DNA of 64,000 nucleotides from a virus (lineage: Duplodnaviria > Heunggongvirae > Uroviricota > Caudoviricetes). Made by a program: the position numbers and the translations under genes. Below are positions 49,619 to 61,350 of the stretch, piece by piece (position 1 is the stretch's first letter; every line of letters begins with the position of its first letter). Location: IMG/VR virus record IMGVR_UViG_3300032294_001260. The stretch is one strand, 5' to 3'. Below the pieces are notes generated by a model that saw only the letters and a program-made list of their open reading frames with translations, did no database searches and was not told the origin of the DNA.

Positions 49619-50008
49619 TTAGATCCCCAACTGCATTTTCAGGTCATTAAACTCCGCCTCACTGACGGTATCGAAATCACGATCAATAATCGGTACGGAT
49701 CCGTCTTCAACATCGCGGGTATTTACGGTAACCATCTTCTTGGTTGCCGTGGCCTTCGGAACTCTGCTCTCCATGCGTGATGCAATCTTACTTGCGTTTG
49801 TCAACGTATAAGACTCGGCCTTTCGACCGTTTCGATTGGTCTGAATTTCTGCATTGAAATCCTTACGCAGCGTGCAAATGTAGACCATTGCACTTGCTAC
49901 GGAACAATCCAAAGTAGCAGTAATCTCTTCAGTCTTTACGGGCTTGCCGCTCTTCATGAGATTGTAGAGGGACAGGATAGTCTTCGACGGTTTCTTAGTA
50001 TTAGCCAT
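49619..50008 (-). CDS. Hypothetical protein
   Basis: 129-aa ORF. Confidence 0.4.
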   Translation of the reverse strand: MANTKKPSKTILSLYNLMKSGKPVKTEEITATLDCSVASAMVYICTLRKDFNAEIQTNRNGRKAESYTLTNASKIASRMESRVPKATATKKMVTVNTRDVEDGSVPIIDRDFDTVSEAEFNDLKMQLGI

Positions 50009-50080: not shown

Positions 50081-50716
50081 TTACGCGGCATTCTTCACAG
50101 TCTTATCGGTGAGATACCGAGTTGTGAAAGTTCGAAGATCGTGATCAGCGTTCAGTCGCGCCTCCTTCTCGATCTCATCAATCGGGGCAACCTCGGGGTT
50201 GATTACTTCACAGTTCCGTGCCCAGACCCACACAATGTTCTTGTGTGTCGGATACTGCTTGCCGTTCGGCGCGGTGTAGGTGGTCATTTCATCGTCGAGG
50301 GCGATGCCGAGTTTCGGTTCAATCGAAGCGCGATAACCCATACCATATGCGCGACGGATCACGACGACAACCTTACCTTCGGTGCCCTTGGCAGTCCTGC
50401 CGCGCACAACCTTTACCGTGCGACCATTGATCGCGGGATCCTTCGCGGTCGAATTGAACGCGCTAGTCATTTCCTCGACCCGACGATTGTACATGAAGTT
50501 GTGATACCGCTGCAATGCAGCCTCATCAATATCAATGGTCACTTCCTCGTTGTCCCAGAGCAAATCTCTGGCGATTGCACCGCGCTCGTTGATCGAATAT
50601 GCAACGCGACAATACTCCCAGATATCCGACATAACCTGAACCGACTCCGATTGCACCATGTAGGTGGAGTTGACGTTCTCGATGCGGTTTTCGTTCATTC
50701 TGCTACGCTTGATCAT
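50081..50716 (-). CDS. Hypothetical protein
   Basis: 211-aa ORF. It is the first gene downstream of early-promoter cassette copy 0. Confidence 0.4.
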   Translation of the reverse strand: MIKRSRMNENRIENVNSTYMVQSESVQVMSDIWEYCRVAYSINERGAIARDLLWDNEEVTIDIDEAALQRYHNFMYNRRVEEMTSAFNSTAKDPAINGRTVKVVRGRTAKGTEGKVVVVIRRAYGMGYRASIEPKLGIALDDEMTTYTAPNGKQYPTHKNIVWVWARNCEVINPEVAPIDEIEKEARLNADHDLRTFTTRYLTDKTVKNAA

Positions 50717-50740: not shown

Positions 50741-50828
50741 ACTGTTTATCAACCCTATAAGAATATTCTACTTAAAATTTAAAAAAGAATCAATAGGAAA
50801 AATTTACACGAAATCAACGACTTACGCG
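50741..50828 (-). promoter_or_regulatory. Early-promoter cassette copy 0 (sigma70-like TTGATT-17-TAGAAT + conserved ATTCTTATAGGG leader)
   Basis: Member of a roughly 75-nt repeat family (see findings). Confidence 0.5.
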
Positions 50829-51134
50829 CTAGCGGGACAGCATCGCCTTTCGCGCCACCGTCCACTCTTCTTCTTCGCCGACGCGGCAAATTGCATCAGC
50901 CGATGCGCGATCTTGGACCGCTGAGTCTTTTGCCTCCAGAGCCGCCCAGACTAATGTTGCCGCCGCCGTCGCAAATGTCGCGGCATCCGTGTCATATGCC
51001 GCTTTTGCGGCACTCAATGCGGCGGGTGCTGATCGCAAAGTGCACATCTGTTCCCAAGCGGGACCGTAACCACCAGCATCAGCAAAGGTCTGGTGTTGCT
51101 CAAGACGAGTCCACATTTTGCTCAAGGTAGTCAT
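50829..51134 (-). CDS. Paralogue 1 of the GC/Ala-rich small-protein family (MW.RL.QHQ.FAD..GYG.AW..MC..R)
   Basis: 101-aa ORF with the conserved N-terminal motif MTTLSKMWTRLEQHQTFADAGGYGPAWEQMC. Confidence 0.55.
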   Translation of the reverse strand: MTTLSKMWTRLEQHQTFADAGGYGPAWEQMCTLRSAPAALSAAKAAYDTDAATFATAAATLVWAALEAKDSAVQDRASADAICRVGEEEEWTVARKAMLSR

Positions 51135-51142
51135 TAGATTAT

Positions 51143-51245
51143 CCCCGTGTCGATCACTATAAGAGTATTATGATCTAATATCGGGCAAATGTAAAGGTGA
51201 AAAATCTTAATGGAATCAAAGACTTACGATGTTCCCGAAGTTTGT
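51143..51245 (-). promoter_or_regulatory. Early-promoter cassette copy 1 (TTTACA-17-CATAAT, diverged) plus upstream terminator-like hairpin CCCGAA-ACAAAC-UUCGGG
   Basis: Shares cactataaga(g/a)tatta and gaaatcaa..acttac with the other copies. Confidence 0.4.
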
Positions 51246-51275
51246 TTCGGGAACATCTATTAGGGGTAACAAGAA

Positions 51276-51623
51276 TTAGTCAAGCCTCGAACCAGCATAG
51301 GCTTCGATGCCCGCATTACGGAGAACATCAGCATATGCACGAGCATAGGCTTCCTTGCGAGTAATGCTCTGGCCACCTTCACTAACCCAGACGCAAAGAC
51401 CGCTAGGATAGTTTTTGCTTGCAACGCCAGCCTTCTTTGCCCAGCGACCCCAAGCGGTGTTACCTTGGAATTCGATCCACGCGAAACCACAGGCACCCTC
51501 GGCGACAAACCACTGCTGTCCGCCGCGCTCGCTGACCACCATCGGGGTTGGAACGGCGGCGACGAGTGCACGCATACCAGCGTTGTGAGCAGCATCATGA
51601 AGGGAACAAAAATCAAAACTCAT
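51276..51623 (-). CDS. Hypothetical protein (Trp/Gly-rich)
   Basis: 115-aa ORF. Preferred over the overlapping 51260..51616 frame because it looks more protein-like. Confidence 0.4.
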   Translation of the reverse strand: MSFDFCSLHDAAHNAGMRALVAAVPTPMVVSERGGQQWFVAEGACGFAWIEFQGNTAWGRWAKKAGVASKNYPSGLCVWVSEGGQSITRKEAYARAYADVLRNAGIEAYAGSRLD

Positions 51624-51655
51624 ATAGTTTTCCTCACGAAATAAAATAATGAGAA

Positions 51656-51910
51656 TTAAACGCGAAAGTGATCATAATTCCGAATCTTGCTGTTTCGGTT
51701 TGTGGTGTATTCCACAAACTCGACAGACTTACCAGCATTACGCAACGCAGTGATAAGCAACTGCGCATCGAGATCTTCTTCGAGGAAGACCCGATCTTTT
51801 CGCTGATAAGAATAAGAAGAAATGCTGTTCAGATCCACATATTTCTCAAGAGTCTTGCGGCTCACAGAAAGCCAGCCGTGGCCAGGGTCTGAGTAGAAAT
51901 ACAGTTTCAT
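51656..51910 (-). CDS. Hypothetical small protein (MKLYFYSDPGHGWLSVSRKTLEKYV...)
   Basis: ATG at 51910, preceded by AAGGAACGAACT from the cassette. The table ORF starts at an upstream GTG that lies inside the cassette. Confidence 0.45.
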   Translation of the reverse strand: MKLYFYSDPGHGWLSVSRKTLEKYVDLNSISSYSYQRKDRVFLEEDLDAQLLITALRNAGKSVEFVEYTTNRNSKIRNYDHFRV

Positions 51911-51927
51911 AGTTCGTTCCTTGTTAA

Positions 51928-52005
51928 TCACTATAAGAATATTATGCCTAATTCTTGCTAAAAACGCAACAGGAAAAACTCTAATGAAATCAACTACTTA
52001 CGAGA
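51928..52005 (-). promoter_or_regulatory. Early-promoter cassette copy 2 (TTGCGT-17-CATAAT)
   Basis: taatcactataagaatattatgcctaattcttgctaaaaacgcaacaggaaaaactctaatgaaatcaactacttac. Confidence 0.5.
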
Positions 52006-52201
52006 ATGAAAGACGCTGGCGTTCGCCAATTTTCCAAACAGCAGCAACTTCATCGTAGTCCAAACGCAATGGAAGAGAGTTTTTATCGGCGGCGACCCAT
52101 GTCATTTTATGGGGGCTAACCTCGTATCTCGTCACTTCAAAATCCATAGTATAGCCGCTTTTGAAAACGACTCGCAACTTGAATACAGTTTCGAATGTCA
52201 T
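51998..52201 (-). CDS. Small hypothetical protein (67 aa, MTFETVFKLRVVFKSGYTMDFEVTRYEVSPHKMTWVAADKNSLPLRLDYDEVAAVWKIGERQRLSFS)
   Basis: C-terminal in-frame part of table ORF 51998..52414, starting at the internal ATG. The ATG overlaps the stop of paralogue 2 (TAATG). Confidence 0.45.
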   Translation of the reverse strand: MTFETVFKLRVVFKSGYTMDFEVTRYEVSPHKMTWVAADKNSLPLRLDYDEVAAVWKIGERQRLSFS

Positions 52202-52491
52202 TAGATCCTCTCCGCTTTGTTGATGCGGTTGATCACATACGCTGCCATCTGCTCCGCAACCTCCGCCGCCGACGTCGCCGTCCCCGTCGCCGAAACGACC
52301 TGTACGACCCTCGCAGCCCACTCCGCCCATGCCGCATCCGCCCCCACAACCTCCGCCGAATACGCCGCCGCCTTCGCCGCCTCTGGTGTGCGCTCCTTGC
52401 ACATGGTCTTCCAAGCATCACCATAGCCGCGTTCGTCTGCAAAGGACTGATGCTGCTCAAGACGCGCCCACATCTTTTTAAGGTCACTCAC
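52201..52491 (-). CDS. Paralogue 2 of the GC/Ala-rich family
   Basis: MSDLKKMWARLEQHQSFADERGYGDAWKTMCKERT... with Ala-rich centre and the ...INKAERI C-terminus. Confidence 0.55.
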   Translation of the reverse strand: MSDLKKMWARLEQHQSFADERGYGDAWKTMCKERTPEAAKAAAYSAEVVGADAAWAEWAARVVQVVSATGTATSAAEVAEQMAAYVINRINKAERI

Positions 52492-52763
52492 GGCTTTATC
52501 TCCCTCATCGTGTCGATGGCGAGTTCGCTATATTGGTCAACCCTCGCCGCAGCAGCCGCCACCGCAGCCCTCGCTTCTGCCGCAGCCCTCGCAAACCACG
52601 CCGCTTCCGACGCCTCGAACGCGCCCGCCGCAGCCGCTGCCTGCCATGCCTCCCACGCAGTATCAGCCGTTCGCTTTCGGCACATTTTGCGCCACGCTTT
52701 AGCGTACTTGGACTTCGGCTTGTGCGCTTCCAGCACCGCCCACATTGTGTCAAGATTAGTCAT
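52488..52763 (-). CDS. Paralogue 3 of the GC/Ala-rich family
   Basis: Internal ATG of table ORF 52488..52970: MTNLDTMWAVLEAHKPKSKYAKAWRKMCRKRT.... TAATG overlap with paralogue 4. Confidence 0.5.
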   Translation of the reverse strand: MTNLDTMWAVLEAHKPKSKYAKAWRKMCRKRTADTAWEAWQAAAAAGAFEASEAAWFARAAAEARAAVAAAAARVDQYSELAIDTMREIKP

Positions 52764-53047
52764 TAGATGTTCTCCGCTTTGTTGATGAAACAAATCGCTT
52801 CCGCCGCCGAATACGCCGCCGATGCCGCAGCCCTCGCCGCCCACGCCGCATTCGCCGCATACGCCGCACCCGCCGCCCACGCCTCCCTCGCCTCCTCCCA
52901 CGCCTCCCTCGCCTCCCTCGCCGCCGCCTCCGCTGCCTTTGGTGTGCGCTCTTCGCACATCCGCTTCCATTTCTTTCCATAGCCGCGCTCATCTGCGATC
53001 GGCTGGTGTTCTGCGAGACGAATCCACATTGTGTCAAGATTAGTCAT
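52763..53047 (-). CDS. Paralogue 4 of the GC/Ala-rich family
   Basis: MTNLDTMWIRLAEHQPIADERGYGKKWKRMCEERT...AAEAICFINKAENI. Confidence 0.55.
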   Translation of the reverse strand: MTNLDTMWIRLAEHQPIADERGYGKKWKRMCEERTPKAAEAAAREAREAWEEAREAWAAGAAYAANAAWAARAAASAAYSAAEAICFINKAENI

Positions 53048-53349
53048 TAGATGTTCTCCGCTTTGTTGATGTACCAGATCGCGTCTTCTGCATACTCAAC
53101 CAGAGACCCCGTTGTCGCAGCCCACGCCATCATCGCCGCATCCGCAGCCGAGCGCAACCTAGCCTTCTGCGCTGATGCCCCAGCCCACGCCGCATCCAAC
53201 GCTGCGGCTTTTAACGTCGCTCCCGCAATTGTTGCTACATCTGGTGTGCGCTCTTGGCACATTGTGCGCCAAACATCGCCGTAACCACCAGCATCGGCAA
53301 AGGACTGATGCTGCGCGAGACGAGTCCACATTTCGTTAAGGTTTGTCAT
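53047..53349 (-). CDS. Paralogue 5 of the GC/Ala-rich family
   Basis: MTNLNEMWTRLAQHQSFADAGGYGDVWRTMCQERT...AIWYINKAENI. The start is taken at the ATG behind the cassette SD. TAATG overlap with paralogue 4. Confidence 0.55.
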   Translation of the reverse strand: MTNLNEMWTRLAQHQSFADAGGYGDVWRTMCQERTPDVATIAGATLKAAALDAAWAGASAQKARLRSAADAAMMAWAATTGSLVEYAEDAIWYINKAENI

Positions 53350-53356
53350 TGTTAGT

Positions 53357-53436
53357 TCCTTGTTAATCACTATAAGAATATAGTGCCTAATTCTTACTAA
53401 AAACGCAACAAGAAAAACTCTAATGAAATCAATGAC
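53357..53436 (-). promoter_or_regulatory. Early-promoter cassette copy 3
   Basis: taatcactataagaatatagtgcctaattcttactaaaacgcaacaagaaaaactctaatgaaatcaatgacttag. Confidence 0.5.
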
Positions 53437-53811
53437 TTAGACAATCCCGAGTTTTGCATTCATCTCGTTGATTTCTTCTGGGGTGGCGATCTTCAATGCG
53501 CTAGGTCGCTGCTGCTTGATTCGCAACATCCGCTGAGATCCAGCCTTAAGGCGCTTGGCTTCTGCCTTGGCAGCACGCGCAGCCGCTTTTTCAGCACGCT
53601 TCGCCTCACGCGCTGCCTTCACAGCCGCACGATGATCTTCCTTCACGATGCGATCTATCCGCGTCTCGCGGCGAATCTCGGCGCGGAGAGCACTCTGCAT
53701 CTGTCGCGACACCTTAATCGCCTCGCGAGTCGCCTTTATGGCACCGATCATATCCTTCACAACCTGACGCTCACGAGCCAGATTCGCCTTCATTTCGTTA
53801 AGACTACTCAT
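53437..53811 (-). CDS. Basic coiled-coil protein (Lys/Arg/Ala-rich, histone H1-like composition)
   Basis: 124-aa ORF. RAAVKAAREAKRAEKAAARAAKAEAKRLKAG. Confidence 0.45.
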   Translation of the reverse strand: MSSLNEMKANLARERQVVKDMIGAIKATREAIKVSRQMQSALRAEIRRETRIDRIVKEDHRAAVKAAREAKRAEKAAARAAKAEAKRLKAGSQRMLRIKQQRPSALKIATPEEINEMNAKLGIV

Positions 53812-54116
53812 GGCTTTACCACTGTGATCGCGTCGATGGCGCGTTGAGCGTCGTAGTCAGTCATCGCCGCCTTGACTGTCGCATCCGCCGCAAAAGTCGC
53901 CGCCCGATTCGCCCACGACGCCTCCGCCGCAACCTTCCCAGCCTTCGCCGAATACGCCGCGTTCGCTGCAACCATCGCCGCATCCGCCGCAGCCCTCCCC
54001 GCTTTAACGGTGCGCTCCTTGCACATTGTTTTCCACGCATCTCCATAGCCTCGCCTGTCTGCGATAGGCTGATGTTGCGCAAGATGGTTCCACATTTCGT
54101 TTACAGTAAGACCCAT
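53808..54116 (-). CDS. Paralogue 6 of the GC/Ala-rich family
   Basis: MGLTVNEMWNHLAQHQPIADRRGYGDAWKTMCKERT.... Confidence 0.55.
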   Translation of the reverse strand: MGLTVNEMWNHLAQHQPIADRRGYGDAWKTMCKERTVKAGRAAADAAMVAANAAYSAKAGKVAAEASWANRAATFAADATVKAAMTDYDAQRAIDAITVVKP

Positions 54117-54127
54117 AAAATTCTCCT

Positions 54128-54358
54128 TTAAAAGTTACGAAGATTGAACTGCCCACGAGTGGTCAGTTCCATGATAACATTAGCCATTTTGACAATCATC
54201 TCATCCTTGTTCTCGACACCACGAACCTTGTTGTCGATACCAAGTTCGCCACCAAATACCTCAACAAAATCAAAAGTGCTGTGGGCACTTTGGCGACCGA
54301 TCTTGATGACCTGTTTTGTAGCAGTGTTCATTTTAGAAATCATCCTAGAAATCCTCAT
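54128..54358 (-). CDS. Hypothetical small protein
   Basis: 76-aa ORF downstream of cassette copy 4. Confidence 0.4.
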   Translation of the reverse strand: MRISRMISKMNTATKQVIKIGRQSAHSTFDFVEVFGGELGIDNKVRGVENKDEMIVKMANVIMELTTRGQFNLRNF

Positions 54359-54389
54359 TTACTACAGAGAGAGCATTTCCCCATCCGAT

Positions 54390-54465
54390 AAGACAATTAT
54401 GCTTGAAACGATTGAAAAACGCAATAGTAAAAACTCTAATGAAATCAACTACTTACACGTGCCCG
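54390..54465 (-). promoter_or_regulatory. Early-promoter cassette copy 4 (TTGCGT-17-CATAAT)
   Basis: gataagacaattatgcttgaaacgattgaaaaacgcaatagtaaaaactctaatgaaatcaactacttac. Confidence 0.5.
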
Positions 54466-54699
54466 TTTCGGGCGCGGTCGAATGAGAGACATCGCGTAGC
54501 GGATGTCATTTTCGTTTCCCACCGACTTGCTGCCGCAGTCGTACCCCTCAAACCAATACTCATCGCACAAGTGTAGGAACACGCGACCGTCATCCATGCC
54601 CGCTCCCTCAATCTCATCGATGCGCGGGTCGGCTGCGACTTTTACGAGCGCTCGCATCGGCGAGAAACCATTGGCGTCGGTGATCTTGGCGCGGCTCAT
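54445..54699 (-). CDS. Hypothetical protein
   Basis: 84-aa ORF. Confidence 0.4.
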   Translation of the reverse strand: MSRAKITDANGFSPMRALVKVAADPRIDEIEGAGMDDGRVFLHLCDEYWFEGYDCGSKSVGNENDIRYAMSLIRPRPKRARVSS

Positions 54700-55031
54700 G
54701 CCGCATTCCGCTGCTGTTGTGCGGCACCCGACTCGATCTCGGCGAGGGCTGCGTCAATCAGCCCATCACCGACGCGCTCAAGGTCGCGCTCCAGTGACCA
54801 ACGACGGTACTCAAAGTCTTGAATCCCCGCCCTATTGGCAAGGGCATTCAGCCGCATGACGTTCGGCCTGTCACCGTTATTATAAAAACGGTAATACAAG
54901 TTCATGAACCTACGATAGTTTTCAAGGGCGGGCGTGTTGCAAGAACCCATGAAAGGAATGTACAACTGGACCGAATTGGTCTCCGCTTCGCGCCGTCCGT
55001 TCCAGAGAGTTTCAAGATTGTTGATGTTCAT
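54696..55031 (-). CDS. Hypothetical protein
   Basis: 111-aa ORF downstream of cassette copy 5 (SD AGGAGA). Confidence 0.4.
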   Translation of the reverse strand: MNINNLETLWNGRREAETNSVQLYIPFMGSCNTPALENYRRFMNLYYRFYNNGDRPNVMRLNALANRAGIQDFEYRRWSLERDLERVGDGLIDAALAEIESGAAQQQRNAA

Positions 55032-55057
55032 GTGAATCTCCTAATTCCTGATCCAAT

Positions 55058-55130
55058 AAAACAATTATGCTTGAAATGATCGAAAAACGCAATAGTAAAA
55101 ACTCTAATGAAATCAATAACTTGCGTGTGG
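55058..55130 (-). promoter_or_regulatory. Early-promoter cassette copy 5
   Basis: aataaaacaattatgcttgaaatgatcgaaaaacgcaatagtaaaaactctaatgaaatcaataacttgc. Confidence 0.5.
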
Positions 55131-55225
55131 CCGTAAAACCTCCTGCAATCGGTTTACAGCGGATCTATCTGGGGTGGGGATAAGGTTAGGGGATTGGGGG
55201 CAGAACGCCGCCAATAGGACTGTAT

Positions 55226-55438
55226 TCAGTTTTCGCTTGAATAAGTTATTTTCCACTGTTTCTGAACAGATGTTTGGACGAACGTCCTAGTGGAAGGGTC
55301 AGCACCGAAGTCGCGAACGTATACGGTCTTGCCGCCGTCGGGACTTTCATAAATTTTAGCAGGTCTGTCTACTTCAATGTGCTGACCGTCGCTGGATGCT
55401 TTACAGACTGCTGCTTCTGTGTAAAAAATCGTGTTCAC
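55226..55438 (-). CDS. Hypothetical small protein
   Basis: 70-aa ORF, ATGA-coupled to the glutaredoxin gene. Confidence 0.4.
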   Translation of the reverse strand: MNTIFYTEAAVCKASSDGQHIEVDRPAKIYESPDGGKTVYVRDFGADPSTRTFVQTSVQKQWKITYSSEN

Positions 55439-55687: not shown

Positions 55688-55761
55688 TGGTAGCGGGGGA
55701 TGGAATTGCACCACCGACCCTCGGATTATGAGTCCGATGTTCTGCTACTGAACTACCCCGC
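55688..55761 (-). tRNA. tRNA with anticodon CAU (Met or Ile2/lysidine type); 6-bp GC acceptor stem, unusual T-loop UGCAAUU
   Basis: Hand-folded. D-arm GUUC/GAAC. Anticodon arm UCGGA-CUCAUAA-UCCGA. T-stem GGUGG/CCAUC. Ends ...CCCCCGCUACCA. Confidence 0.5.
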
Positions 55762-55865
55762 AATTTTATTCTTTTGCTGCTTTTTCTTCCCGAAGATGCG
55801 TTCCCAGTTCTCATCAAACTGTTTTCTGGGAACACTCAGCGGTCTAGGCTTACTACCCTTTCCGC

Positions 55866-56438
55866 TCACGCCGCTTTCCTCCAGACTCGACTGGTCTTTG
55901 GAATGCTTGCCTTCAAGAATTCCATTTGGTCCGCAAGAACCTTTCGATTCTTCAAAAGAATTCTTTCATGCACTGTTGGTGCATACGGAACATAGAGCAG
56001 ATGCATCTTTGCTTCTTCTGGTGTCTTCCAGCCCTTACGATGATTGCACACACGGCATGCAGTCACACAGTTTGACCAGTAATTCTTACCGCCGCGTGAC
56101 TTTGGCAGCACGTGATCGATGGTCAATTGGCTAGTGTTGAATTCATCACCACAATATGCGCAGATGTACTGATCGCGGGCATACAGCGTCATACGATCAG
56201 CGAACACAGTCTGTGTGTTGTAAAACTTGTCGCCAAGAATAGGACCACTCACACCGATGATTGACGAAATGTCAATCCGTGATTGTTCTCCATACTGGTT
56301 GTATCCACCCAGCATGGTCTTCAATTTTTCGCCGAGTTCCCAAACGACCTTTTCCTTTGCGTAATAGCAAGCAGCGATTTCAAAATCGCACCAGTCTTTT
56401 GGAGCACCACCCTTGTCTACAACCAATACCAATGACAC
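55866..56438 (-). CDS. HNH endonuclease (McrA-like; DHVLPKSRGG...NCVTACRVCNHRKG), GTG start
   Basis: 190-aa ORF. SD AAGGAG sits 9 nt upstream of the GTG. It is preceded by TATAAATA (56469-56476, minus strand). Confidence 0.7.
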   Translation of the reverse strand: MSLVLVVDKGGAPKDWCDFEIAACYYAKEKVVWELGEKLKTMLGGYNQYGEQSRIDISSIIGVSGPILGDKFYNTQTVFADRMTLYARDQYICAYCGDEFNTSQLTIDHVLPKSRGGKNYWSNCVTACRVCNHRKGWKTPEEAKMHLLYVPYAPTVHERILLKNRKVLADQMEFLKASIPKTSRVWRKAA

Positions 56439-56468
56439 GACACAATCTCCTTCAATTTAACATCACAA

Positions 56469-56476
56469 TATTTATA
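56469..56476 (-). promoter_or_regulatory. TATAAATA late-promoter-like motif upstream of the HNH gene
   Basis: The plus strand reads tatttata. Confidence 0.35.
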
Positions 56477-56510
56477 TTATAAATCTAAATTTATTAAAAA
56501 TCAAGCAATA

Positions 56511-57641
56511 TTAATTTTCACCCTTTTTGGCTACTGCAATACCATTGTTGTGTTCAACGGCGAAATTACCCGCTCTTTCAATGTTTGGACCGCCGCCCTT
56601 AAATTTAAGGCCAGCAATAACACCCCGATTTTCTGGAATACCGTGGATGGCTTTGTCTAAATGACGGTGATCATGTTCGTCGCCATCAATAACGGGATAT
56701 GATTTACCAGTTTCTTCATCATGAACATGTGTCGGAAGTGGAGTTGATGATTTTTTACCGCGTGATGGAATGTTAAATGCCATCGCCGCAACACCACCTC
56801 TATCTAGATGTCTACGAACTTGATTCCAATTACTTTCGTCGTGATTCAATCCAGTTGATGATAGGGTAAGATGATAATTTGATGGCTTTCTTTTATGATT
56901 AGTTCTACCAGCAATTTTAGTATAATCATAGAATGAAACGTCGCCATGCTTTTCAAATAATTTTGGTGCTAGATGTTCATGAGGAATATCTGACAAAACA
57001 TTTAAACGAACTGCAAGTTTTTTACCCTTTCTAGTCGCAGTTTTCTTTGCATTCTCAATTTCATTGTCGAGTTTAGCGTAAAACAAATGTGGGTGATCGA
57101 AGAATTTGAGTGTTTTGTTGATACGTCCGCGACGTACATTTGACATTGTACCGCGACCCGCAGCAGATCCTAAGCAAGCAGCCTTACATTCTTTTGATGC
57201 TGCTGGGCACACATCAATACCAGACATGGTTGACGGTGCCAGTGACAGAGCCTTAGTAGTATATTCTGGAATCTTTTCACCAGACTTGGCTAACTTTGGA
57301 TTCGATGCTTCGTTCCCCAAAAGATTCCCTTCTCCGAGAACTCTCTTCGCTTCTGTTCTCATTGCTCGCTGTTCTTCTGGAGAAGCATTAAAATATTTTT
57401 CCGCCCCCTCACGAACTTTATGCCAGTGATTCCCGCCCTCTTCACTCGGTGAAGGAATGCCGCTAGATGGGGTGGTTGGATGTTCTGATGCAACATGAAC
57501 ATTAGGATTTTCAACCTTTATGGGAATATCGGTCAATTTCATCTCATCAAGAACGCCCTCAAACAAAGAAATGAAATTATCCATTTCAAAAGAGAATTCT
57601 TTGAGTTCTTTTTCGACAATATATTGCTTAAATCCTAACAT
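56511..57641 (-). CDS. Hypothetical protein with Cys cluster (GIDVCPAASKECKAACLGSAAGRG) and His-rich C-terminal region
   Basis: 376-aa ORF. Confidence 0.45.
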   Translation of the reverse strand: MLGFKQYIVEKELKEFSFEMDNFISLFEGVLDEMKLTDIPIKVENPNVHVASEHPTTPSSGIPSPSEEGGNHWHKVREGAEKYFNASPEEQRAMRTEAKRVLGEGNLLGNEASNPKLAKSGEKIPEYTTKALSLAPSTMSGIDVCPAASKECKAACLGSAAGRGTMSNVRRGRINKTLKFFDHPHLFYAKLDNEIENAKKTATRKGKKLAVRLNVLSDIPHEHLAPKLFEKHGDVSFYDYTKIAGRTNHKRKPSNYHLTLSSTGLNHDESNWNQVRRHLDRGGVAAMAFNIPSRGKKSSTPLPTHVHDEETGKSYPVIDGDEHDHRHLDKAIHGIPENRGVIAGLKFKGGGPNIERAGNFAVEHNNGIAVAKKGEN

Positions 57642-57699
57642 TTGAAGGCACCTTTAGTTAAGGGGATGAGTATTTTATATTTATGTTTTTCCCGTTTTA

Positions 57700-57936
57700 T
57701 CAGAAAGATATGGCCAAAACGGTCAGTTGTTTGGACGCAGTTTGGCCTTCTCCGATATAGAGACTTTCTGGAGAATTCCACTGGGTAGGTGACGCTTGGA
57801 CGTTGTTTTCTTTTAAAAATTTGATCAAATCGTCTACTTTTTCGGATTCCACCGAAATGTAGGCTTCGCTTAGATTGACTGCGCTGATCTGATCAATTAG
57901 ATCTAAAACGTTCTGATATTCCATAATATACTCCAA
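57700..57936 (-). CDS. Hypothetical protein
   Basis: 78-aa ORF. Confidence 0.35.
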   Translation of the reverse strand: MEYIMEYQNVLDLIDQISAVNLSEAYISVESEKVDDLIKFLKENNVQASPTQWNSPESLYIGEGQTASKQLTVLAISF

Positions 57937-57939
57937 GAA

Positions 57940-58263
57940 CTATTGAATATGGTTGTATTTAGCATATTCCTTTGTCATGTATATTTGGAGCGCGTCCAGC
58001 AATTTTACAATTCTATGTCTTTGATTGTTGCCCGTTAGTTCTAGTGTTTCATTCCTTAGAGTACCGAGAATTAATAGAACATCTCGGCCAGAAATTTGCT
58101 GTTTTCTTATTTGTGTGAGCAAATTTCTATATGCTCGGGCTTGAGGATAGACTTTTTCGTTGGGGACTCCAGATGAGGACGCCCCCCTATTCTCTAAGGC
58201 ATCACATAGCATGTCTATGTGAGGTTGTAAGTCTTCGAATTTGAATTTTTTTGTTTCTGTCAT
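57940..58263 (-). CDS. Hypothetical protein (start taken at the internal ATG 58263, because the table start 58302 lies inside tRNA-Arg)
   Basis: MTETKKFKFEDLQPHIDMLCDALENRG.... Confidence 0.4.
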   Translation of the reverse strand: MTETKKFKFEDLQPHIDMLCDALENRGASSSGVPNEKVYPQARAYRNLLTQIRKQQISGRDVLLILGTLRNETLELTGNNQRHRIVKLLDALQIYMTKEYAKYNHIQ

Positions 58264-58268
58264 AAAAG

Positions 58269-58344
58269 TGGCGCGGATGGAGAGATTCGAACTCCCGACC
58301 ATCAGGTTCGAAGCCTGAGTCTCTATCCACTGAGTTACATCCGC
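58269..58344 (-). tRNA. tRNA-Arg (anticodon UCG)
   Basis: GCGGAUG/CAUCCGC acceptor. Anticodon arm UCAGG-CUUCGAA-CCUGA. T-arm GGGAG-UUCGAAU-CUCUC. G73 and CCA are encoded. Confidence 0.75.
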
Positions 58345-58357
58345 GTTATGTTTTAAA

Positions 58358-58433
58358 TGGTGCCCTCGACAGGATTCGAACCTGTGTTTTTCAGTTTAGG
58401 AAACTGATGCCTTATCCACTAGACTACGAAGGC
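58358..58433 (-). tRNA. tRNA-Arg (anticodon CCU)
   Basis: GCCUUCG/CGAGGGC acceptor. Anticodon arm UCAGU-UUCCUAA-ACUGA. T-arm ACAGG-UUCGAAU-CCUGU. CCA encoded. Confidence 0.75.
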
Positions 58434-58600
58434 GATGGTCCCCACTTACCGACGGGGCACATTGTCGTTTTCCATTGAGTTTTTAATTTGAGAATGCATC
58501 CGCATTTAGAGCAAACACCGATTTTATTGTGTTCGCATTTTTGGCAAATTGCCAATCTTTGATTCTTGACTTCTTCAGAAGCGATTCTACTATCAAACAT
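58424..58600 (-). CDS. Small Cys-rich protein (58 aa, MFDSRIASEEVKNQRLAICQKCEHNKIGVCSKCGCILKLKTQWKTTMCPVGKWGPSPS); the 3' end overlaps tRNA-Arg(CCU) by ~10 nt
   Basis: Hand-found ORF between two tRNA genes. SD AGGAT. Confidence 0.3.
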   Translation of the reverse strand: MFDSRIASEEVKNQRLAICQKCEHNKIGVCSKCGCILKLKTQWKTTMCPVGKWGPSPS

Positions 58601-58613
58601 ATACGATCCTAAA

Positions 58614-58688
58614 TGGTGCGGAAAGAGGGATTCGAACCCTCATCATCGGTTTGGAAGACCGACATAATAGCCCTTATACGATTTCCGC
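58614..58688 (-). tRNA. tRNA-Gly (anticodon UCC)
   Basis: GCGGAAA/UUUCCGC acceptor. Anticodon arm UCGGU-CUUCCAA-ACCGA. T-arm GAGGG-UUCGAAU-CCCUC. A73, CCA. Confidence 0.75.
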
Positions 58689-58708
58689 ATCTTTTGCCAA
58701 ACTCTGCG

Positions 58709-59350
58709 TTAATCCCATTTAATTTTTCTACCTAATTCCCAACCATATGGAAGTGGATCGTTTTTGTTGATTCTAATACTATTTTTTAAACTTTTATTGT
58801 GAATCCACATTTTACCGTATTGAGAATTTTTGCTCCCTTTAGAAGATATTGCCAGTTTTTCGCTGATTTTCTTTTTACTTTCTTCCGTATGCTTTTTACC
58901 TTTCCAATTGGGGGCAGATATTTTTCTTTCCTTATGCCATATTTTTAATCTTGTTGATACAGATTCATTTAGTTTTTTTCTGTATGTTGGATCAGTATTC
59001 ACTTTTTGCATGTGGAGTGATTTTTTACCATTCTCAACCTTCCAAGATTGGTCAATTAAAGAATTTACATAATCAAACCCACCGAAGCCACCTTTCTTGA
59101 GATTGTATGTATTGTTTTCACTAATGAATTCTTCAGTAACTATCTCGGCTTCTTTAGCAAACATATCTTCTGGATTATCAAATACAAACAGAATTTCTTT
59201 TTTGAAATTCTCGATACCATATTTTTGTATGGCGTATTTCAAATACTTCCCAGAACCCAAATAATCGTCATTCAGTTCAACGGTCTTATGAGTTCCAATA
59301 TAGAACTTGCCATTGACCTGATTTGTCGTCTTATAAACGATATAGAACAT
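58709..59350 (-). CDS. GIY-YIG homing endonuclease (Seg-like) within the tRNA cluster
   Basis: 213-aa ORF. N-terminus YIVYKTTNQVNGKFYIGTHKT matches the GIY-(10-11)-YIG signature. Lys-rich C-terminal DNA-binding region. Confidence 0.75.
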   Translation of the reverse strand: MFYIVYKTTNQVNGKFYIGTHKTVELNDDYLGSGKYLKYAIQKYGIENFKKEILFVFDNPEDMFAKEAEIVTEEFISENNTYNLKKGGFGGFDYVNSLIDQSWKVENGKKSLHMQKVNTDPTYRKKLNESVSTRLKIWHKERKISAPNWKGKKHTEESKKKISEKLAISSKGSKNSQYGKMWIHNKSLKNSIRINKNDPLPYGWELGRKIKWD

Positions 59351-59372
59351 AGGAATCTCCTGTTACTATATG

Positions 59373-59380
59373 TATTTATA
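59373..59380 (-). promoter_or_regulatory. TATAAATA late-promoter-like motif about 20 nt upstream of the GIY-YIG gene (followed by SD AGGAGA)
   Basis: The minus strand reads TATAAATACATATAGTAACAGGAGATTCCTATG. Confidence 0.4.
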
Positions 59381-59410
59381 AAAGTTCGAGCCTTGACGGA
59401 GGCTCATGTG

Positions 59411-59484
59411 TGCGAGTGGTGGGATTCGAACCCACACTTTTGAGATTTTAAGTCTCATGCCTCTGCCGATTGCGCTACACTCGC
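59411..59484 (-). tRNA. tRNA-like gene with anticodon UAA (Leu-type anticodon) but a 5-nt variable loop and weak D-stem; A73; CCA not encoded
   Basis: GCGAGUG/CACUCGC acceptor. D-loop has A14 and G18G19. Anticodon arm UGAGA-CUUAAAA-UCUCA. T-arm GUGGG-UUCGAAU-CCCAC. Confidence 0.4.
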
Positions 59485-59492
59485 CAAAAATT

Positions 59493-59568
59493 TGGTCAAG
59501 GTGAGAGGACTCGAACCTCCAACTTCGACGCCCCAAACGTCGCACTCTACCAATTGAGTTACACCCTG
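59493..59568 (-). tRNA. tRNA-Pro (anticodon UGG)
   Basis: C1-G72 acceptor CAGGGUG/CACCUUG. Anticodon arm CGACG-UUUGGGG-CGUCG. T-arm GGAGG-UUCGAGU-CCUCU. A73, CCA. Confidence 0.7.
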
Positions 59569-59607
59569 ATTTTTGTATCATACTACATTTATATAGCAAA
59601 GTCAAAC

Positions 59608-59683
59608 TGGTGGGACCACTAGGATTTGAACCTAGAATCAAAGAATTATGAGTTCTCTGCATTGACCGTTATGCTATAGTCCC
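59608..59683 (-). tRNA. tRNA with anticodon CAU (Met or Ile2)
   Basis: GGGACUA/UGGUCCC acceptor. D-stem GCAU/AUGC. Anticodon arm GAGAA-CUCAUAA-UUCUU. T-arm CUAGG-UUCAAAU-CCUAG. A73, CCA. Confidence 0.65.
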
Positions 59684-60084: not shown

Positions 60085-60116
60085 GGTGATAAATCCTCAA
60101 AAATAACTCCAGATAT

Positions 60117-60710: not shown

Positions 60711-60770
60711 ACCCCTTACCTTATCACATTTGACCAGAAAAGTAAAGGGTGAATTGAAAAATGATAGAAT

Positions 60771-60862: not shown

Positions 60863-60959
60863 GAATGGCGGAAGGCAGTGTACTCGAAACACATCCCCGA
60901 AGAAACCATCTGTTTAGCAAACAGCGACAGATCCTCTCTGCTTTACCTTCCAATTAAAT

Positions 60960-61169: not shown

Positions 61170-61188
61170 ATTATATTCCTTTCAAAAG

Positions 61189-61262: not shown

Positions 61263-61268
61263 AAAAAC

Positions 61269-61344: not shown

Positions 61345-61350
61345 ATAAAC

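What the first reader, a model, noticed from the sequence alone, without database searches (positions are those of the whole stretch)
50741..55135. Tandem array of six GC/Ala-rich paralogous small genes, each re-armed with a repeated ~75-nt early-promoter cassette
A ~75-nt sequence (…GAAATCAA(C/T)NACTTAC…AAAAACGCAA(C/T)AG…TTCTTATAG(G/T)G…) occurs at least 6 times: 50741, 51143, 51928, 53357, 54390 and 55058. On the coding (minus) strand each copy reads as a sigma70-like promoter (TTGCGT/TTGATT -17- CATAAT/TAGAAT), a conserved leader and an SD (AAGGAAC.AAC.ATG). Its 5' edge overlaps the stop codon of the preceding gene. Between the copies lie six paralogues (50829-51134, 52201-52491, 52488-52763, 52763-53047, 53047-53349, 53808-54116). 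They share the N-terminal motif M(T/S)xLxxMWxRLxxHQx(F/I)ADxxGYGxxWxxMCxERT. After the motif comes a hypervariable Ala/Trp-rich segment (AW…AW periodicity), and some end in YINKAENI. They are extremely GC-rich (GCC/GCG Ala codons) in an otherwise ~40% GC genome, which is why every alternative frame shows Gly/Arg/Pro-rich ghost ORFs. Several are coupled by TAATG overlaps. This looks like a recently amplified, diversifying early-gene family (candidate host-takeover or anti-defence proteins) of foreign compositional origin.
Basis: seen in the sequence. Interest (0 to 1): 0.75.

Follow-up and report, generated by a model that had tools for sequence, protein, structure and literature searches.

The report
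Phage early-gene island with IHF-promoter cassettes
A variable early-gene region of an uncultured freshwater T4-like phage is cut into six short operons by a repeated control cassette (a textbook IHF-binding site fused to a standard promoter), and it carries six old, diverged copies of a widespread phage protein family of unknown function.

Summary
The repeats and the paralogues are real. Six ~90-nt cassettes lie at 50746-55134 on the minus strand, and they are the only copies in the window. Six paralogous ~95-aa genes lie between them.

The cassette is not a local duplication. It recurs, several copies per contig, in many uncultured phage contigs. Its most conserved part is a 28-nt box with all four canonical elements of an IHF-binding site (YAA-N4-TTGATT-N9-T5). 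The box sits at fixed spacing (4 nt) from a sigma70 -35/N17/-10 promoter. The closest known system is the PeSL cassette of T4-type phages, but RB49 PeSL-type promoters lack this box.

Synteny shows a hyperplastic region. Between the same backbone genes, relatives hold 1-3 cassettes; this phage holds 6 cassettes and 15 genes.

Only two cassettes directly precede a paralogue, and four paralogues share one operon.

The paralogues are old (34-52% identity), and five of six have a better match in another phage. They belong to an unannotated family (656 clusters at 50% identity) that also forms arrays in other phages. GC3 is high (0.55-0.72 against 0.41). One paralogue is 81-88% nt-identical to genes of temperate phages with 57-58% GC, so part of the array was acquired horizontally.

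Protein function remains unknown: a confident six-helix bundle with no informative structural match.

The parts
55045..55134 (-). Cassette 1: IHF-like core CAAGTTATTGATT 55111-55123, T-tract ending at 55097, -35 TTGCGT 55087-55092, 17-nt spacer, -10 CATAAT 55064-55069. Drives the 111-aa and 84-aa genes.
54377..54466 (-). Cassette 2: IHF-like core 54443-54455, -35 TTGCGT 54419-54424, -10 CATAAT 54396-54401. A GCCCGaaaCGGGC hairpin lies just upstream (about 54465-54477). The 5' edge overlaps the TGA stop of the 84-aa gene. Drives the 71-aa gene, paralogue F and the 124-aa gene.
53361..53450 (-). Cassette 3: IHF-like core 53427-53439, -35 TTGCGT 53403-53408, -10 CACTAT 53380-53385. Overlaps the TAA stop of the 124-aa gene. 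Drives the operon E-D-C-B plus the 67-aa ORF.
51922..52011 (-). Cassette 4: IHF-like core 51988-52000, -35 TTGCGT 51964-51969, -10 CATAAT 51941-51946. Overlaps the TAA stop of the 67-aa ORF. A small hairpin lies at 52016-52029. Drives the 84-aa and 115-aa genes.
51147..51237 (-). Cassette 5: IHF-like core 51214-51226, -35 TTTACA 51190-51195, -10 CATAAT 51167-51172. Preceded by a 9-bp hairpin, GTTCCCGAA-acaaac-TTCGGGAAC, within about 51232-51262 (-19.9 kcal/mol for the 41-nt upstream segment). Drives paralogue A.
50746..50835 (-). Cassette 6: IHF-like core 50812-50824, -35 TTGATT 50788-50793, -10 TAGAAT 50765-50770. The 41-nt segment just upstream folds stably (-18.4 kcal/mol). Drives the 211-aa gene and the backbone genes downstream of it.
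53808..54116 (-). Paralogue F (102 aa, ends -VVKP). Second gene of its operon. ATGA overlap with the next gene.
53047..53349 (-). Paralogue E (100 aa, ends YINKAENI). First gene behind cassette 3.
   Evidence: AF2 model pLDDT 91
52763..53047 (-). Paralogue D (94 aa, ends FINKAENI). TAATG coupling on both sides. Contains 9/18/21-nt tandem repeats at 52826-52925.
52488..52763 (-). Paralogue C (91 aa, short 'HKP-KSKYAKAW' core variant, ends -EIKP). It is 75% aa and 81% nt identical to a gene of temperate lambdoid-like contig L061. Its 3' half plus the junction is 88% nt identical to L060.
52201..52491 (-). Paralogue B (96 aa, GTG start in a GTGA overlap with C, ends RINKAERI).
50829..51134 (-). 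Paralogue A (101 aa, the most divergent copy, with its own C-terminus). The only gene behind cassette 5.
54445..55031 (-). Two unrelated small genes (111 aa at 54696-55031, 84 aa at 54445-54699) joined by an ATGA overlap. GC3 is 0.63 and 0.67. No family match.
54128..54343 (-). 71-aa gene. Cassette 2 and its leader (GGATGGGGAAAT) recur with similar sequence in other phage contigs (L007, L008/L082).
53437..53811 (-). 124-aa Lys/Arg/Ala-rich predicted coiled-coil gene (pI 11.1). It has homologues (34-81% identity) at this locus in several relatives.
51276..52201 (-). Three unrelated small genes: a 67-aa ORF at 51998-52201 (not called by the public gene callers), an 84-aa gene at 51656-51910, and a 115-aa gene at 51276-51623 (weak match to phrog_22149).
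52715..53085 (-). Two successive gene junctions (E/D and D/C) that share an exact 48-nt stretch, CATCAACAAAGCGGAGAACATCTAATGACTAATCTTGACACAATGTGG, while the gene bodies are only about 50% identical. This is the only sign of recent recombination or gene conversion within the array.
   Evidence: family D6
55135..55225 (-). Non-coding stretch between backbone gene g70 and cassette 1. Its 3' part (CCGCTGTAAACCGATTGCAGGAGGTTTTAC) is conserved in other phage contigs (L021, L008, L028).
55226..55438 (-). Backbone gene g70, the upstream border of the hyperplastic region. It is conserved next to Grx and HNH in relatives.
49619..50008 (-). Backbone gene g129, the downstream border of the hyperplastic region in relatives. 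The 211-aa gene at 50081-50716 lies between it and cassette 6.

Best explanation
The stretch is the core of a hyperplastic early-gene region in an uncultured freshwater T4-like myophage, probably with a betaproteobacterial host.

Six copies of a modular regulatory cassette divide it into six short, translationally coupled operons. Each cassette contains, in order:
1. sometimes a terminator-like hairpin;
2. a canonical IHF-binding site (YAA-N4-TTGATT-N9-TTTTT);
3. exactly 4 nt further on, a sigma70 promoter (-35, 17 nt, -10);
4. a 30-52-nt leader with a Shine-Dalgarno sequence.

Inferred mechanism: host IHF binds at about -70 to -40 and bends the DNA sharply. Host sigma70 RNA polymerase then fires these promoters at the start of infection. 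Because every module carries the same ~90 nt, homologous recombination between cassettes adds, removes and swaps gene modules, as proposed for PeSLs.

Among the modules are six old members of a widespread, unannotated phage protein family. Each is about 95 aa and predicted to form a six-helix bundle. A 35-aa N-terminal core is under purifying selection; the Ala/Trp-rich helices that follow are variable. At least part of the array came by horizontal exchange with higher-GC temperate phages, and N- and C-terminal halves have been reshuffled within the GCG-rich middle.

The proteins most likely act as small soluble binding proteins made early in infection (host takeover or counter-defence). This last step is inference only.
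For: Cassette:
- Six copies with identical geometry.
- Full cassettes, several per contig, occur in other phage contigs; L135 has 17 nhmmer cassette matches in about 12.5 kb.
- Information content peaks at TAA, TTGATT and the T-tract, not at the promoter hexamers.
- In 38 unique promoter-linked sites the three positions are Y/A/A in 38/38 while N4 varies. The -35 starts 4 nt after the T-tract in 33/38, and the spacer is 17 nt in 37/38.
- The opposite strand, AAAAACTCTAATGAAATCAA-N4-TTR, aligns in register with the lambda att string AAAAAAGCATTGCTTATCAATTTGTTG. That string is confirmed in the literature; its identity as the H' IHF site is from my own knowledge.
- All four canonical IHF elements listed in PMC1874591 are present.
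- The composite motif occurs 6 times in the window against 0.08 expected.
- The same 20-mer also sits next to iteron-like repeats and next to tRNA genes, which are classic IHF contexts.

Hyperplastic region:
- The backbone HNH-Grx-g70 ... g129-g80-g154-g215 is conserved. The interval holds 1 cassette in about 0.85 kb in L158 (also 1 in L163, L185 and L106), up to 3 in L007 and L075, and 6 cassettes with 15 genes in 5.2 kb here.

Family:
- 656 clusters at 50% identity, 416 with E<1e-10.
- Arrays in L044 (5 copies), L003 (3), L051 (3), L060 (3) and L043 (2).
- AF2 pLDDT 91, six helices.
- Omega is 0.13 in the core and 0.86 in the rest. dS is 1.30 against 0.18, which indicates a mosaic history.
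- GC3 is 0.55-0.72 against 0.41; GCG is 66% of Ala codons against 19%.
- 88% nt identity over 162 nt with temperate-type contig L060.

Host and phage type:
- gp5, gp6-like, gp59 and gp33-like genes.
- A betaproteobacterial-type tmRNA and a GOLLD RNA.
Against: - No binding, transcription-start or timing data exist. IHF binding and early expression are inferred from sequence alone.
- The IHF site centre is about -52, closer to the promoter than in the best-known IHF-activated sigma70 promoters (own knowledge). The box could work differently, for example as an UP-like element, a roadblock or a site for a phage factor.
- Terminator hairpins are present upstream of only about half of the window copies, and only 7 of 38 motif-matched sites across the window and related loci have a strong one.
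- Only 64 kb of a contig of about 130 kb could be examined, so the genome-wide distribution of the cassette in this phage is unknown.
- No recombination event between cassettes has been observed directly.
- High GC3 is seen for the family in every low-GC phage examined. It may be partly intrinsic to the family rather than a mark of recent transfer.
Confidence: 0.65

Rival explanations
1. One reading: a recent in-situ amplification of one foreign gene. Each copy would be re-armed with its own promoter cassette, and the copies would now be diversifying as anti-defence or host-takeover proteins.
For: - The genes are tandem and translationally coupled.
- An exact 48-nt identity at two successive junctions indicates some recent intra-array recombination.
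- Codon usage is foreign-looking.
- Omega is about 0.86 in the variable segment of one pair.
Against: - Paralogues are 34-52% identical to each other, and five of six have better matches in other phages.
- Similar arrays exist in unrelated phages, including temperate ones.
- Only 2 of 6 cassettes directly precede a paralogue, and 3 drive unrelated genes.
- The cassette is a clade-wide promoter, not a local by-product of duplication.
Confidence: 0.1
2. The conserved 28-nt box is not an IHF site. It would instead be an UP-element-like contact for the RNA polymerase alpha subunit (possibly phage-modified, as for T4 early promoters), or the site of a phage-encoded factor. The match to the IHF consensus would be coincidental.
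For: - The box is AT-rich and lies at -66 to -40, where UP elements and the extended conservation of T4 early promoters lie (own knowledge).
- IHF binding has not been tested.
- The spacer between TTGAT and the T-tract is more conserved than IHF alone would require.
Against: - All four canonical IHF elements are present in the correct register.
- The conservation pattern fits the IHF consensus exactly: YAA invariant, N4 free, TTGATW invariant, and a TT/AA step 9 bp away.
- The same 20-mer occurs beside iterons and tRNA/att-like sites, where an UP element makes no sense.
Confidence: 0.2
3. The cassette is primarily a recombination or mobility module. IHF-bent cassettes would be substrates for excision and integration of gene mini-circles, and promoter activity would be secondary.
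For: - Cassette number and the genes between cassettes vary between relatives at one locus.
- PeSLs are reported to form mini-circles by recombination between flanking copies (PMC2839356).
- IHF is a classic co-factor of site-specific recombination (own knowledge).
- The box begins with stop codons (TAA, often TAG and TGA in other frames), so it can close any upstream ORF.
Against: - No recombinase gene is linked to the cassettes in the window.
- Every copy is co-oriented with genes and carries a well-spaced -35/-10 plus a leader and SD.
- No junction or circle has been observed.
Confidence: 0.12
4. The GC-richness of the paralogues is intrinsic to the family (Ala-rich sequence plus GCG-repeat DNA) and says nothing about foreign origin.
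For: - Family genes have GC about 0.6 and GC3 0.6-0.75 in every low-GC phage examined (window, L017/L044, L049, L050, L051), and are only slightly above background in phages of 53-60% GC.
- The other GC-rich spot in the window (5000-6500) is explained by collagen-like Gly repeats in a tail fibre.
Against: - GC3 and synonymous codon choice (GCG, GAG, AGG/CGC) are shifted, not just amino-acid composition.
- Unrelated neighbours in the island also have raised GC3 (0.58-0.67).
- There is direct nucleotide-level similarity (81-88%) to genes of temperate phages with 57-58% GC.
Confidence: 0.25
5. The family is a phage version of Imm5-like immunity proteins. The arrays would be 'polyimmunity' loci that neutralise variants of a host or competitor toxin.
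For: - The best BFVD structural match is a phage protein annotated 'Imm-5-like domain-containing' (prob 0.96, TM 0.62, E 0.5).
- Homogeneous tandem arrays of immunity genes are known from polymorphic toxin systems (PMC3482391).
Against: - No Pfam Imm5 or Imm5-like match for any of 67 members, even at E<=10, nor for long-form relatives.
- No toxin gene lies nearby.
Confidence: 0.08

Closest known systems
PeSL (promoter-early stem-loop) regulatory cassettes of T4-type phages (RB49/phi1, PST/T4, nt-1/KVP40; Arbiol et al. 2010 PMC2839356; Comeau et al. 2014 PMC4122927)
   Same: - A repeated composite element of about 70-90 nt with an AT-rich upstream part, a sigma70-like -35/N17/-10, and a leader with SD and start codon.
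- Co-oriented with small ORFan genes and clustered in a hyperplastic region.
- Cassette number and the genes between cassettes differ between related phages.
- The -35 variants TTGCNT and TTTACW resemble the reported nt-1/KVP40 (TTGYVH) and PST/T4 (TTTACW) consensus.
   Different: - The hallmark stem-loop is facultative here: strong in 3 of 6 copies.
- The most conserved part is a 28-nt IHF-consensus box at fixed phasing. This box is absent from all 46 strong promoter-like sites in the first 50 kb of RB49 and is not mentioned in the PeSL text read (all of PMC4122927 parts 1-2; term-search excerpts of PMC2839356).
- Mini-circle formation has not been tested.
IHF-dependent phage early promoters and canonical IHF sites (lambda pL, Mu Pe; lambda attP H' site). 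From own knowledge plus PMC1874591.
   Same: WATCAA-N4-TTR, a 5' A-tract and two ApA steps 9 bp apart, in the same register as lambda H'. The site lies upstream of a sigma70 promoter that would be used at the start of infection.
   Different: - The site abuts the -35 hexamer (centre about -52) instead of lying at about -80 to -90.
- It is repeated as a standard part of many promoters of a virulent T4-like phage.
- No binding data exist.
Hypervariable internal-protein (IP) locus of T-even phages
   Same: Tandem small genes with a conserved N-terminus and variable bodies, in a recombination-prone locus flanked by repeated regulatory sequences (mentioned in PMC4122927).
   Different: - The conserved N-terminus here is a folded 35-aa core, not a 10-aa capsid-targeting peptide.
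- There is no conserved (L/I)xE cleavage motif.
- The family also occurs in temperate and non-T4 phages.
Polyimmunity loci and Imm5-like proteins of polymorphic toxin systems (Zhang et al. 2012, PMC3482391)
   Same: Arrays of small, mostly helical paralogues. There is a weak structural resemblance to one phage protein annotated Imm-5-like.
   Different: No sequence-profile match and no associated toxin. The setting is a phage early region.

Membership tests
PeSL regulatory cassette | Sigma70-like early promoter (-35, about 17 nt, -10) | tested here: met
   All six copies have a 17-nt spacer and score 6-10 of 12 against the consensus. In related loci, 37 of 38 have a 17-nt spacer. Promoter activity itself was not tested.
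PeSL regulatory cassette | Stem-loop (terminator) immediately upstream of the promoter | tested here: inconclusive
   Hairpins precede cassettes 5, 6 and 2: the 41-nt upstream segments fold at -19.9, -18.4 and -13.5 kcal/mol (z = -4.4, -3.7, -2.0). Cassette 4 has a weak one, cassette 3 none, and cassette 1 was not scored. Seven of 38 motif-matched sites across the window and related loci have z < -3. No hairpin lies inside the cassette.
PeSL regulatory cassette | Located in hyperplastic regions beside variable small ORFs, and associated with indels between relatives | tested here: met
   The same backbone interval holds 1 to 6 cassettes and 2 to 15 genes in related phages.
PeSL regulatory cassette | Recombination between copies (mini-circles) | not testable with these tools
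   Needs inverse PCR or long reads from infected cells.
Canonical IHF-binding site | WATCAA core | tested here: met
   AATCAA on the opposite strand in 6 of 6 copies. TTGAT is invariant in the secondary copies.
Canonical IHF-binding site | TTR located 4 bp 3' of the core | tested here: met
   YAA on the gene strand in 6 of 6 copies and in 38 of 38 related sites, with N4 variable.
Canonical IHF-binding site | A-tract of 4-6 A in the 5' half | tested here: met
   T5 on the gene strand, at a fixed distance, in 6 of 6 copies.
Canonical IHF-binding site | Two ApA (TpT) steps 9 bp apart at the kink sites | tested here: met
   The AA of ATCAA and the AA of CTAATG are 9 bp apart. A TT or AA step at that position is seen in 10 of 11 divergent copies read from the alignment. 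Elements are as listed in PMC1874591.
Canonical IHF-binding site | Specific binding and bending by IHF | not testable with these tools
   Needs a gel shift or footprint.
Imm5 / Imm-5-like immunity proteins | Match to Pfam PF14423 or PF21805 | tested here: not met
   No match in 67 family members at E<=10, nor in long-form relatives.
Imm5 / Imm-5-like immunity proteins | Fold similarity | tested here: inconclusive
Imm5 / Imm-5-like immunity proteins | Adjacent toxin gene | tested here: not met
   No toxin domain among neighbours in five different genomic contexts.
T4 internal proteins | Short N-terminal capsid-targeting sequence ending in a conserved (L/I)xE cleavage site | tested here: not met
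   The LxE motif is present in only some copies (LSK, LKK and LDT in A-D). The conserved part is a 35-aa folded core.
DNA-mimic anti-restriction proteins (Ocr, ArdA, Arn type) | Strongly acidic surface (pI about 4) | tested here: not met
   The pI of the six copies is 4.9-9.3. The family median is 5.4, with a range of 4.2-10.5.

The most novel reading that the evidence does not exclude
The cassettes are IHF-assisted 'plug-and-play' modules. The host IHF bend would both boost early transcription and promote recombination between cassettes, for example by mini-circle excision and integration. This would let virulent T4-like phages capture ready-made gene arrays from temperate phages of the same host. 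The Ala/Trp-rich family would be a polyimmunity-like portfolio of small inhibitors, each copy neutralising a different variant of a host defence or toxin effector.
Probability: 0.12. Interest if true: 0.8.

Novelty: new variant of a known kind. Interest (0 to 1): 0.55.

Why it matters
PeSL cassettes were proposed as the engine of gene shuffling in T4-type phages, but whether a protein co-factor takes part was left open. This clade offers a cassette in which a textbook IHF site is fixed in phase with the promoter. That gives two cheap, direct tests: IHF binding, and promoter activity with and without ihf. It also offers a candidate helper for both transcription and recombination.

The exact 20-mer occurs in more than 120 metagenome contigs from many samples. 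About 38 unique sites sit next to a sigma70-like promoter. It could therefore serve as a marker for early promoters in uncultured phage genomes.

The protein family (656 clusters at 50% identity) has no match in Pfam, PHROGs or NCBIfam, and two members tested by tblastn found nothing in about 50,000 deposited phage genomes. It recurs as arrays in virulent and temperate phages. That makes it a well-defined candidate set for screens of early-protein function such as host takeover or counter-defence.

The near-identical gene segment shared by a 42% GC T4-like phage and temperate phages of 57-58% GC is a concrete case of gene flow between the two lifestyles.

Tried and rejected
Annotation searches that found nothing:
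- Near-identity search of the region against INPHARED.
- tblastn of paralogue E and of family member P0107 against INPHARED.
- Pfam, PHROGs and NCBIfam scans of the paralogues, neighbours, long-form relatives and fusion proteins gave no credible family.
- PDB sequence-profile searches with A3 and A7.

Structure searches that were uninformative:
- Foldseek against the PDB had no hit below E 0.6.
- The afdb50 library was unavailable.

Other searches:
- Rfam found no RNA family inside 50.7-55.2 kb.
- RNA folding of the cassette itself gave z-scores of -1.8 to +0.25, so there is no internal structure.
- A GTDB genome scan for the family gave only two weak hits in 185,579 species representatives, so there is no host clue.
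- The attempt to reach the rest of the genome failed: the ENA scaffold ends at the window edge and the 130-kb JGI contig was not returned.
- A literature search for the cassette sequence gave 0 papers. A search for IHF plus T4-like early promoters also gave 0 papers.

Ideas considered and rejected:
- DNA mimic (pI not acidic).
- T4 internal-protein-like capsid targeting (no conserved cleavage motif).
- Sigma54 promoter (no GG at -24).
- MotA-box middle promoter (the spacing fits sigma70 -35, not a Mot box).
- T7-like single-subunit RNA polymerase promoter (weak resemblance only, a T4-like genome, and the other contexts of the 20-mer do not fit).
- An antisense ORF 'MKS(T/I)TY' on the opposite strand of the box (it runs antisense into the upstream genes).

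Full report
**1. What is in the sequence**

All features lie on the minus strand. I read the region and searched for repeats. A profile built from the six copies was then run over the whole window. It recovers exactly six cassettes:
- 55045-55134
- 54377-54466
- 53361-53450
- 51922-52011
- 51147-51237
- 50746-50835

E-values are 9e-17 to 3e-22, and the next best match anywhere in the 64 kb has E=1.7.

The six proposed genes align over their whole length, with M1 M7 W8 L11 H14 Y23 W27 M30 C31 R34 invariant. A family HMM finds these six and no others in the window.

GC rises to 55-64% at 52-54 kb against about 42% elsewhere. The gene junctions are TAATG (E/D, D/C, B/67-aa ORF) and GTGA or ATGA (C/B, F/124-aa gene).

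**2. Corrections to the description**

The six cassettes head six transcription units that together contain 15 genes:

| Cassette | Genes it drives |
|---|---|
| 1 | 111-aa gene, 84-aa gene |
| 2 | 71-aa gene, paralogue F, 124-aa gene |
| 3 | E, D, C, B, 67-aa ORF |
| 4 | 84-aa gene, 115-aa gene |
| 5 | A |
| 6 | 211-aa gene and onwards |

- Only two cassettes directly precede a paralogue, and four paralogues share one promoter.
- The 'AAGGAAC' leader is shared by cassettes 3 and 4 only.
- The upstream stop codon lies inside the cassette in three copies.
- The Ala codon responsible for the GC-richness is GCG (66% of Ala codons against 19% in 29 reference genes), not GCC (4%).

**3. Genomic setting**

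The window encodes T4-type baseplate, hub and tail-fibre proteins, gp59, a gp33-like coactivator and PhoH. It has no close relative among deposited phages.

It carries 15 tRNAs, a two-piece betaproteobacterial-type tmRNA and a full-length GOLLD RNA. This points to a freshwater T4-like myophage of a betaproteobacterium. The same sequence is present in ENA and JGI metagenome assemblies.

**4. The cassette belongs to a clade, not to this locus**

The 20-mer TTGATTTCATTAGAGTTTTT occurs in 26 IMG/VR stretches and in more than 120 metagenome contigs. The cassette profile finds full-length cassettes in many of these, often several per contig, always co-oriented with the genes. L135 has 17 matches in about 12.5 kb.

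Aligning 29 non-redundant copies gives this consensus:

cGTAAGTyATTGATTTCATTAGAGTTTTT-n4-(TTGCnT or TTTACw)-n17-(C/G/T)ATAAT

Information content peaks at TAA, TTGATT and the T-run rather than at the promoter hexamers. This also holds for the 11 copies that lack the exact 20-mer used for the search.

**5. The upstream box is a canonical IHF site (sequence shown, binding inferred)**

On the gene strand the box reads YAA-N4-TTGATW. This is the reverse complement of the IHF consensus WATCAA-N4-TTR. A T5 tract follows 9 nt downstream.

On the opposite strand, AAAAACTCTAATGAAATCAA-N4-TTA aligns position for position with AAAAAAGCATTGCTTATCAATTTGTTG of lambda att. The alignment includes the second ApA step 9 bp upstream of the AA of ATCAA. 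One search confirms that this string is a lambda-att sequence; that it is the H' IHF site is from my own knowledge.

These are the four elements that define a canonical IHF site according to PMC1874591.

Supporting counts:
- All six window copies match. The composite pattern occurs six times in the window against 0.08 expected.
- Among 38 unique promoter-linked sites from other contigs, the three TTR-complement positions are Y, A, A in 38/38 while the N4 positions vary.
- In the same set, the -35 hexamer begins 4 nt after the T-tract in 33/38, and the -35/-10 spacer is 17 nt in 37/38.
- This fixed phasing argues that the box and the promoter work together.

The same 20-mer also turns up beside iteron-like ACGGTTCCA repeats in soil contigs and directly beside tRNA genes. 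Replication origins and attachment sites are the other classic homes of IHF sites (own knowledge).

No HU/IHF-like signature was found in the six-frame translation of the window, so the host protein is the likely ligand.

**6. Relation to PeSLs**

PeSLs are composite elements with a terminator stem-loop, an AT-rich stretch, a sigma70 promoter and an SD. They cluster in hyperplastic regions of T4-type phages and are proposed, with inverse-PCR evidence, to mediate gene shuffling (PMC2839356 and PMC4122927).

Features that fit:
- The promoter, the leader and the location all fit.
- The reported nt-1/KVP40 early consensus TTGYVH-N17-TAWWAT resembles the TTGCGT copies here.

Features that differ:
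- The stem-loop is only facultative. The 41-nt segments upstream of cassettes 5, 6 and 2 fold stably. Cassette 4 has a weak hairpin and cassette 3 none; cassette 1 was not scored. Seven of 38 motif-matched sites across the window and related loci have z < -3.
- The cassette itself has no structure.
- In the first 50 kb of RB49, none of 46 strong promoter-like sites has an IHF core within 70 nt upstream. The IHF box is therefore a distinguishing feature of this variant.

**7. The locus is a hyperplastic region**

I mapped homologues of the island's genes, the cassettes and the family members onto all fetched loci. A conserved backbone appears: HNH - glutaredoxin - g70 - [variable] - g129 - g80 - g154 - g215.

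| Phage contig | Cassettes in the variable interval |
|---|---|
| L158, L163, L185, L106 | 1 (in L158: two small genes, about 0.85 kb) |
| L082, L030 | 2 |
| L007, L075 | 3 |
| This phage | 6, with 15 genes in 5.2 kb |

- A K/R-rich coiled-coil gene like the 124-aa gene has homologues at this locus in several relatives.
- The orthologue of the 211-aa gene in more distant phages is driven by a different terminator-plus-promoter element.
- In the related contig L044, the family array sits at a different locus, behind a CobS-like gene that is itself headed by the cassette.
- This is the pattern expected if cassette-bounded modules are gained and lost.

**8. The protein family**

Size and spread:
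- A profile of the six copies finds 81 relatives in the word-indexed database.
- An exhaustive HMM search finds 656 clusters at 50% identity, 416 of them with E<1e-10.
- None carries a Pfam, PHROG or NCBIfam annotation, and none was found in INPHARED.

Genomic contexts:
- T4-like phages (window, L044).
- A PolA-type phage (L003).
- Temperate lambdoid-type contigs with Cro, ERF, YqaJ and YbcO (L060, L061).

Copy number: multiple copies are common, with 5 in L044, 3 in L003, 3 in L051, 3 in L060 and 2 in L043. Single proteins holding two copies also exist.

Longer relatives: a family of 200-250-aa phage proteins shares the core motif (hhalign probability 98.7%).

Structure and chemistry:
- AlphaFold2 with a 67-sequence alignment gives a confident six-helix bundle (pLDDT 91, pTM 0.82).
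- Structure searches are uninformative. The one exception is a non-significant top hit to a phage protein annotated 'Imm-5-like', and no sequence profile supports that link.
- The proteins are not notably acidic.

**9. Age, origin and selection**

- The six copies are 34-52% identical to each other. Five of six score better against proteins from other phages than against any sister copy, so the array is not a recent amplification.
- The only recent intra-array event is a 48-nt exact identity at the E/D and D/C junctions.
- GC3 is 0.55-0.72 against 0.41 for reference genes, with shifted synonymous codon choice. Unrelated neighbours in the island are also raised (0.58-0.67).
- Family genes keep GC at about 0.6 in every low-GC phage examined, so part of the bias may be intrinsic.
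- Paralogue C is 81% nt-identical to a gene of the 58% GC temperate contig L061.
- The 3' half of C plus the GTGA junction and the start of B is 88% identical over 162 nt to L060, which holds the same kind of coupled pair.
- In the C/L061 pair, the N-terminal 36 codons have dS 1.30 and omega 0.13. The rest has dS 0.18 and omega 0.86. This means a conserved core under purifying selection, and a variable part that is relaxed or diversifying and was exchanged more recently. Recombination within the GCG-rich middle therefore shuffles the two halves. The counts are small (6 synonymous and 18 non-synonymous differences), so 'diversifying selection' is not shown.

**10. Verdict**

The finding is real. 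It is best described as a PeSL-type hyperplastic early region whose cassettes carry a canonical IHF site, populated in part by an old, horizontally mobile, unannotated protein family.

- The regulatory anatomy and the comparative genomics are shown.
- IHF binding, early timing and cassette-mediated recombination are inferred.
- Protein function is unknown, and my proposal (small early binding proteins for takeover or counter-defence) is a weak inference.
- Overall this is a new variant of a known kind, of moderate interest.

Noticed in passing
window 63196-63660 (minus): Full-length GOLLD RNA (Rfam RF02032, 218 bits against a gathering score of 150) with tRNA-Lys 63523-63594 embedded in it, at the edge of the phage tRNA cluster.
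   Followed up: no
window 44236-44530 (minus): A phage-encoded two-piece (permuted) tmRNA of betaproteobacterial type (RF01850 108 bits, RF04321 139 bits). ARAGORN gives the tag peptide ANDDVYDMALAA. This is a clue to the host.
   Followed up: partly
window 55688-63594 (minus): Cluster of 15 tRNA genes, including Arg-CCT. Arg-CCT reads AGG, which makes up 34% of Arg codons in the paralogues against 8% in reference genes.
   Followed up: no
window 5000-6500, inside ORF 4506-6986 (minus): A second GC-rich spot (57-66% GC). It lies in an 826-aa tail-fibre protein with collagen-like repeat matches, so there the GC-richness is explained by amino-acid composition.
   Followed up: partly
window 55135-55225: Non-coding stretch upstream of cassette 1. 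Its 3' part (CCGCTGTAAACCGATTGCAGGAGGTTTTAC, a possible small hairpin) is conserved in other phage contigs (L021 about 3855-3895, L008 about 1580-1619, L028). Function unknown.
   Followed up: no
metagenome loci L070, L084-L086, L096, L097, L100, L110, L113, L119 and others: The exact 20-mer of the IHF-like box occurs in a family of contigs that share the context AAATCCTGTCACCCCGACC-[box]. It is followed there by iteron-like repeats (ACGGTTCCA, three or more copies), which looks like a plasmid or phage replication origin.
   Followed up: no
metagenome loci L080, L081, L109, L112, L129, L159: The same 20-mer abuts what looks like the end of a tRNA gene (GGCTCCTCGACCTGGGCTCGAACC...), as expected for an integrase attachment site with an IHF site.
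   Followed up: no
L135 (Ga0209086_10001981), about 1000-12600: 17 cassette matches in about 12.5 kb, all on one strand. This contig would be the best material for defining the cassette and its gene modules.
   Followed up: partly
L060 9520-10578 and L061 3876-4429: Temperate lambdoid-type contigs (Cro, ERF, YqaJ, YbcO) carry a coupled pair of family genes downstream of ybcO, joined by the same GTGA junction as C/B in the window. In L060 the preceding 83-aa ORF also matches the family HMM (three hits in L060) and ends in -INKAEGKT.
   Followed up: partly
proteins P0082-P0087 and P0152, P0148, P0099, P0107, P0201: Some natural proteins hold two family domains in tandem. Others fuse one domain to unannotated C-terminal segments with the motif ...KPLTDE(E/Q)I...ARAIE.AHGI typical of small prophage proteins. 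The two-domain forms suggest that neighbouring paralogues may associate.
   Followed up: no
L003, L044, L054-L056: In three unrelated phage types, family genes lie within a few kb downstream of a gene pair encoding a MoxR/CobS-like AAA ATPase and a VWA/DUF2201 protein. This may only reflect shared early-region placement.
   Followed up: no
window 53437-53811 (minus): The 124-aa K/R/A-rich gene starts MSSLNEM..., resembling the MTNLNEMW start of the family, and its first 26 nt are 69% identical to the start of paralogue B (family D7). It does not match the family HMM. This may be a trace of recombination at gene starts.
   Followed up: no
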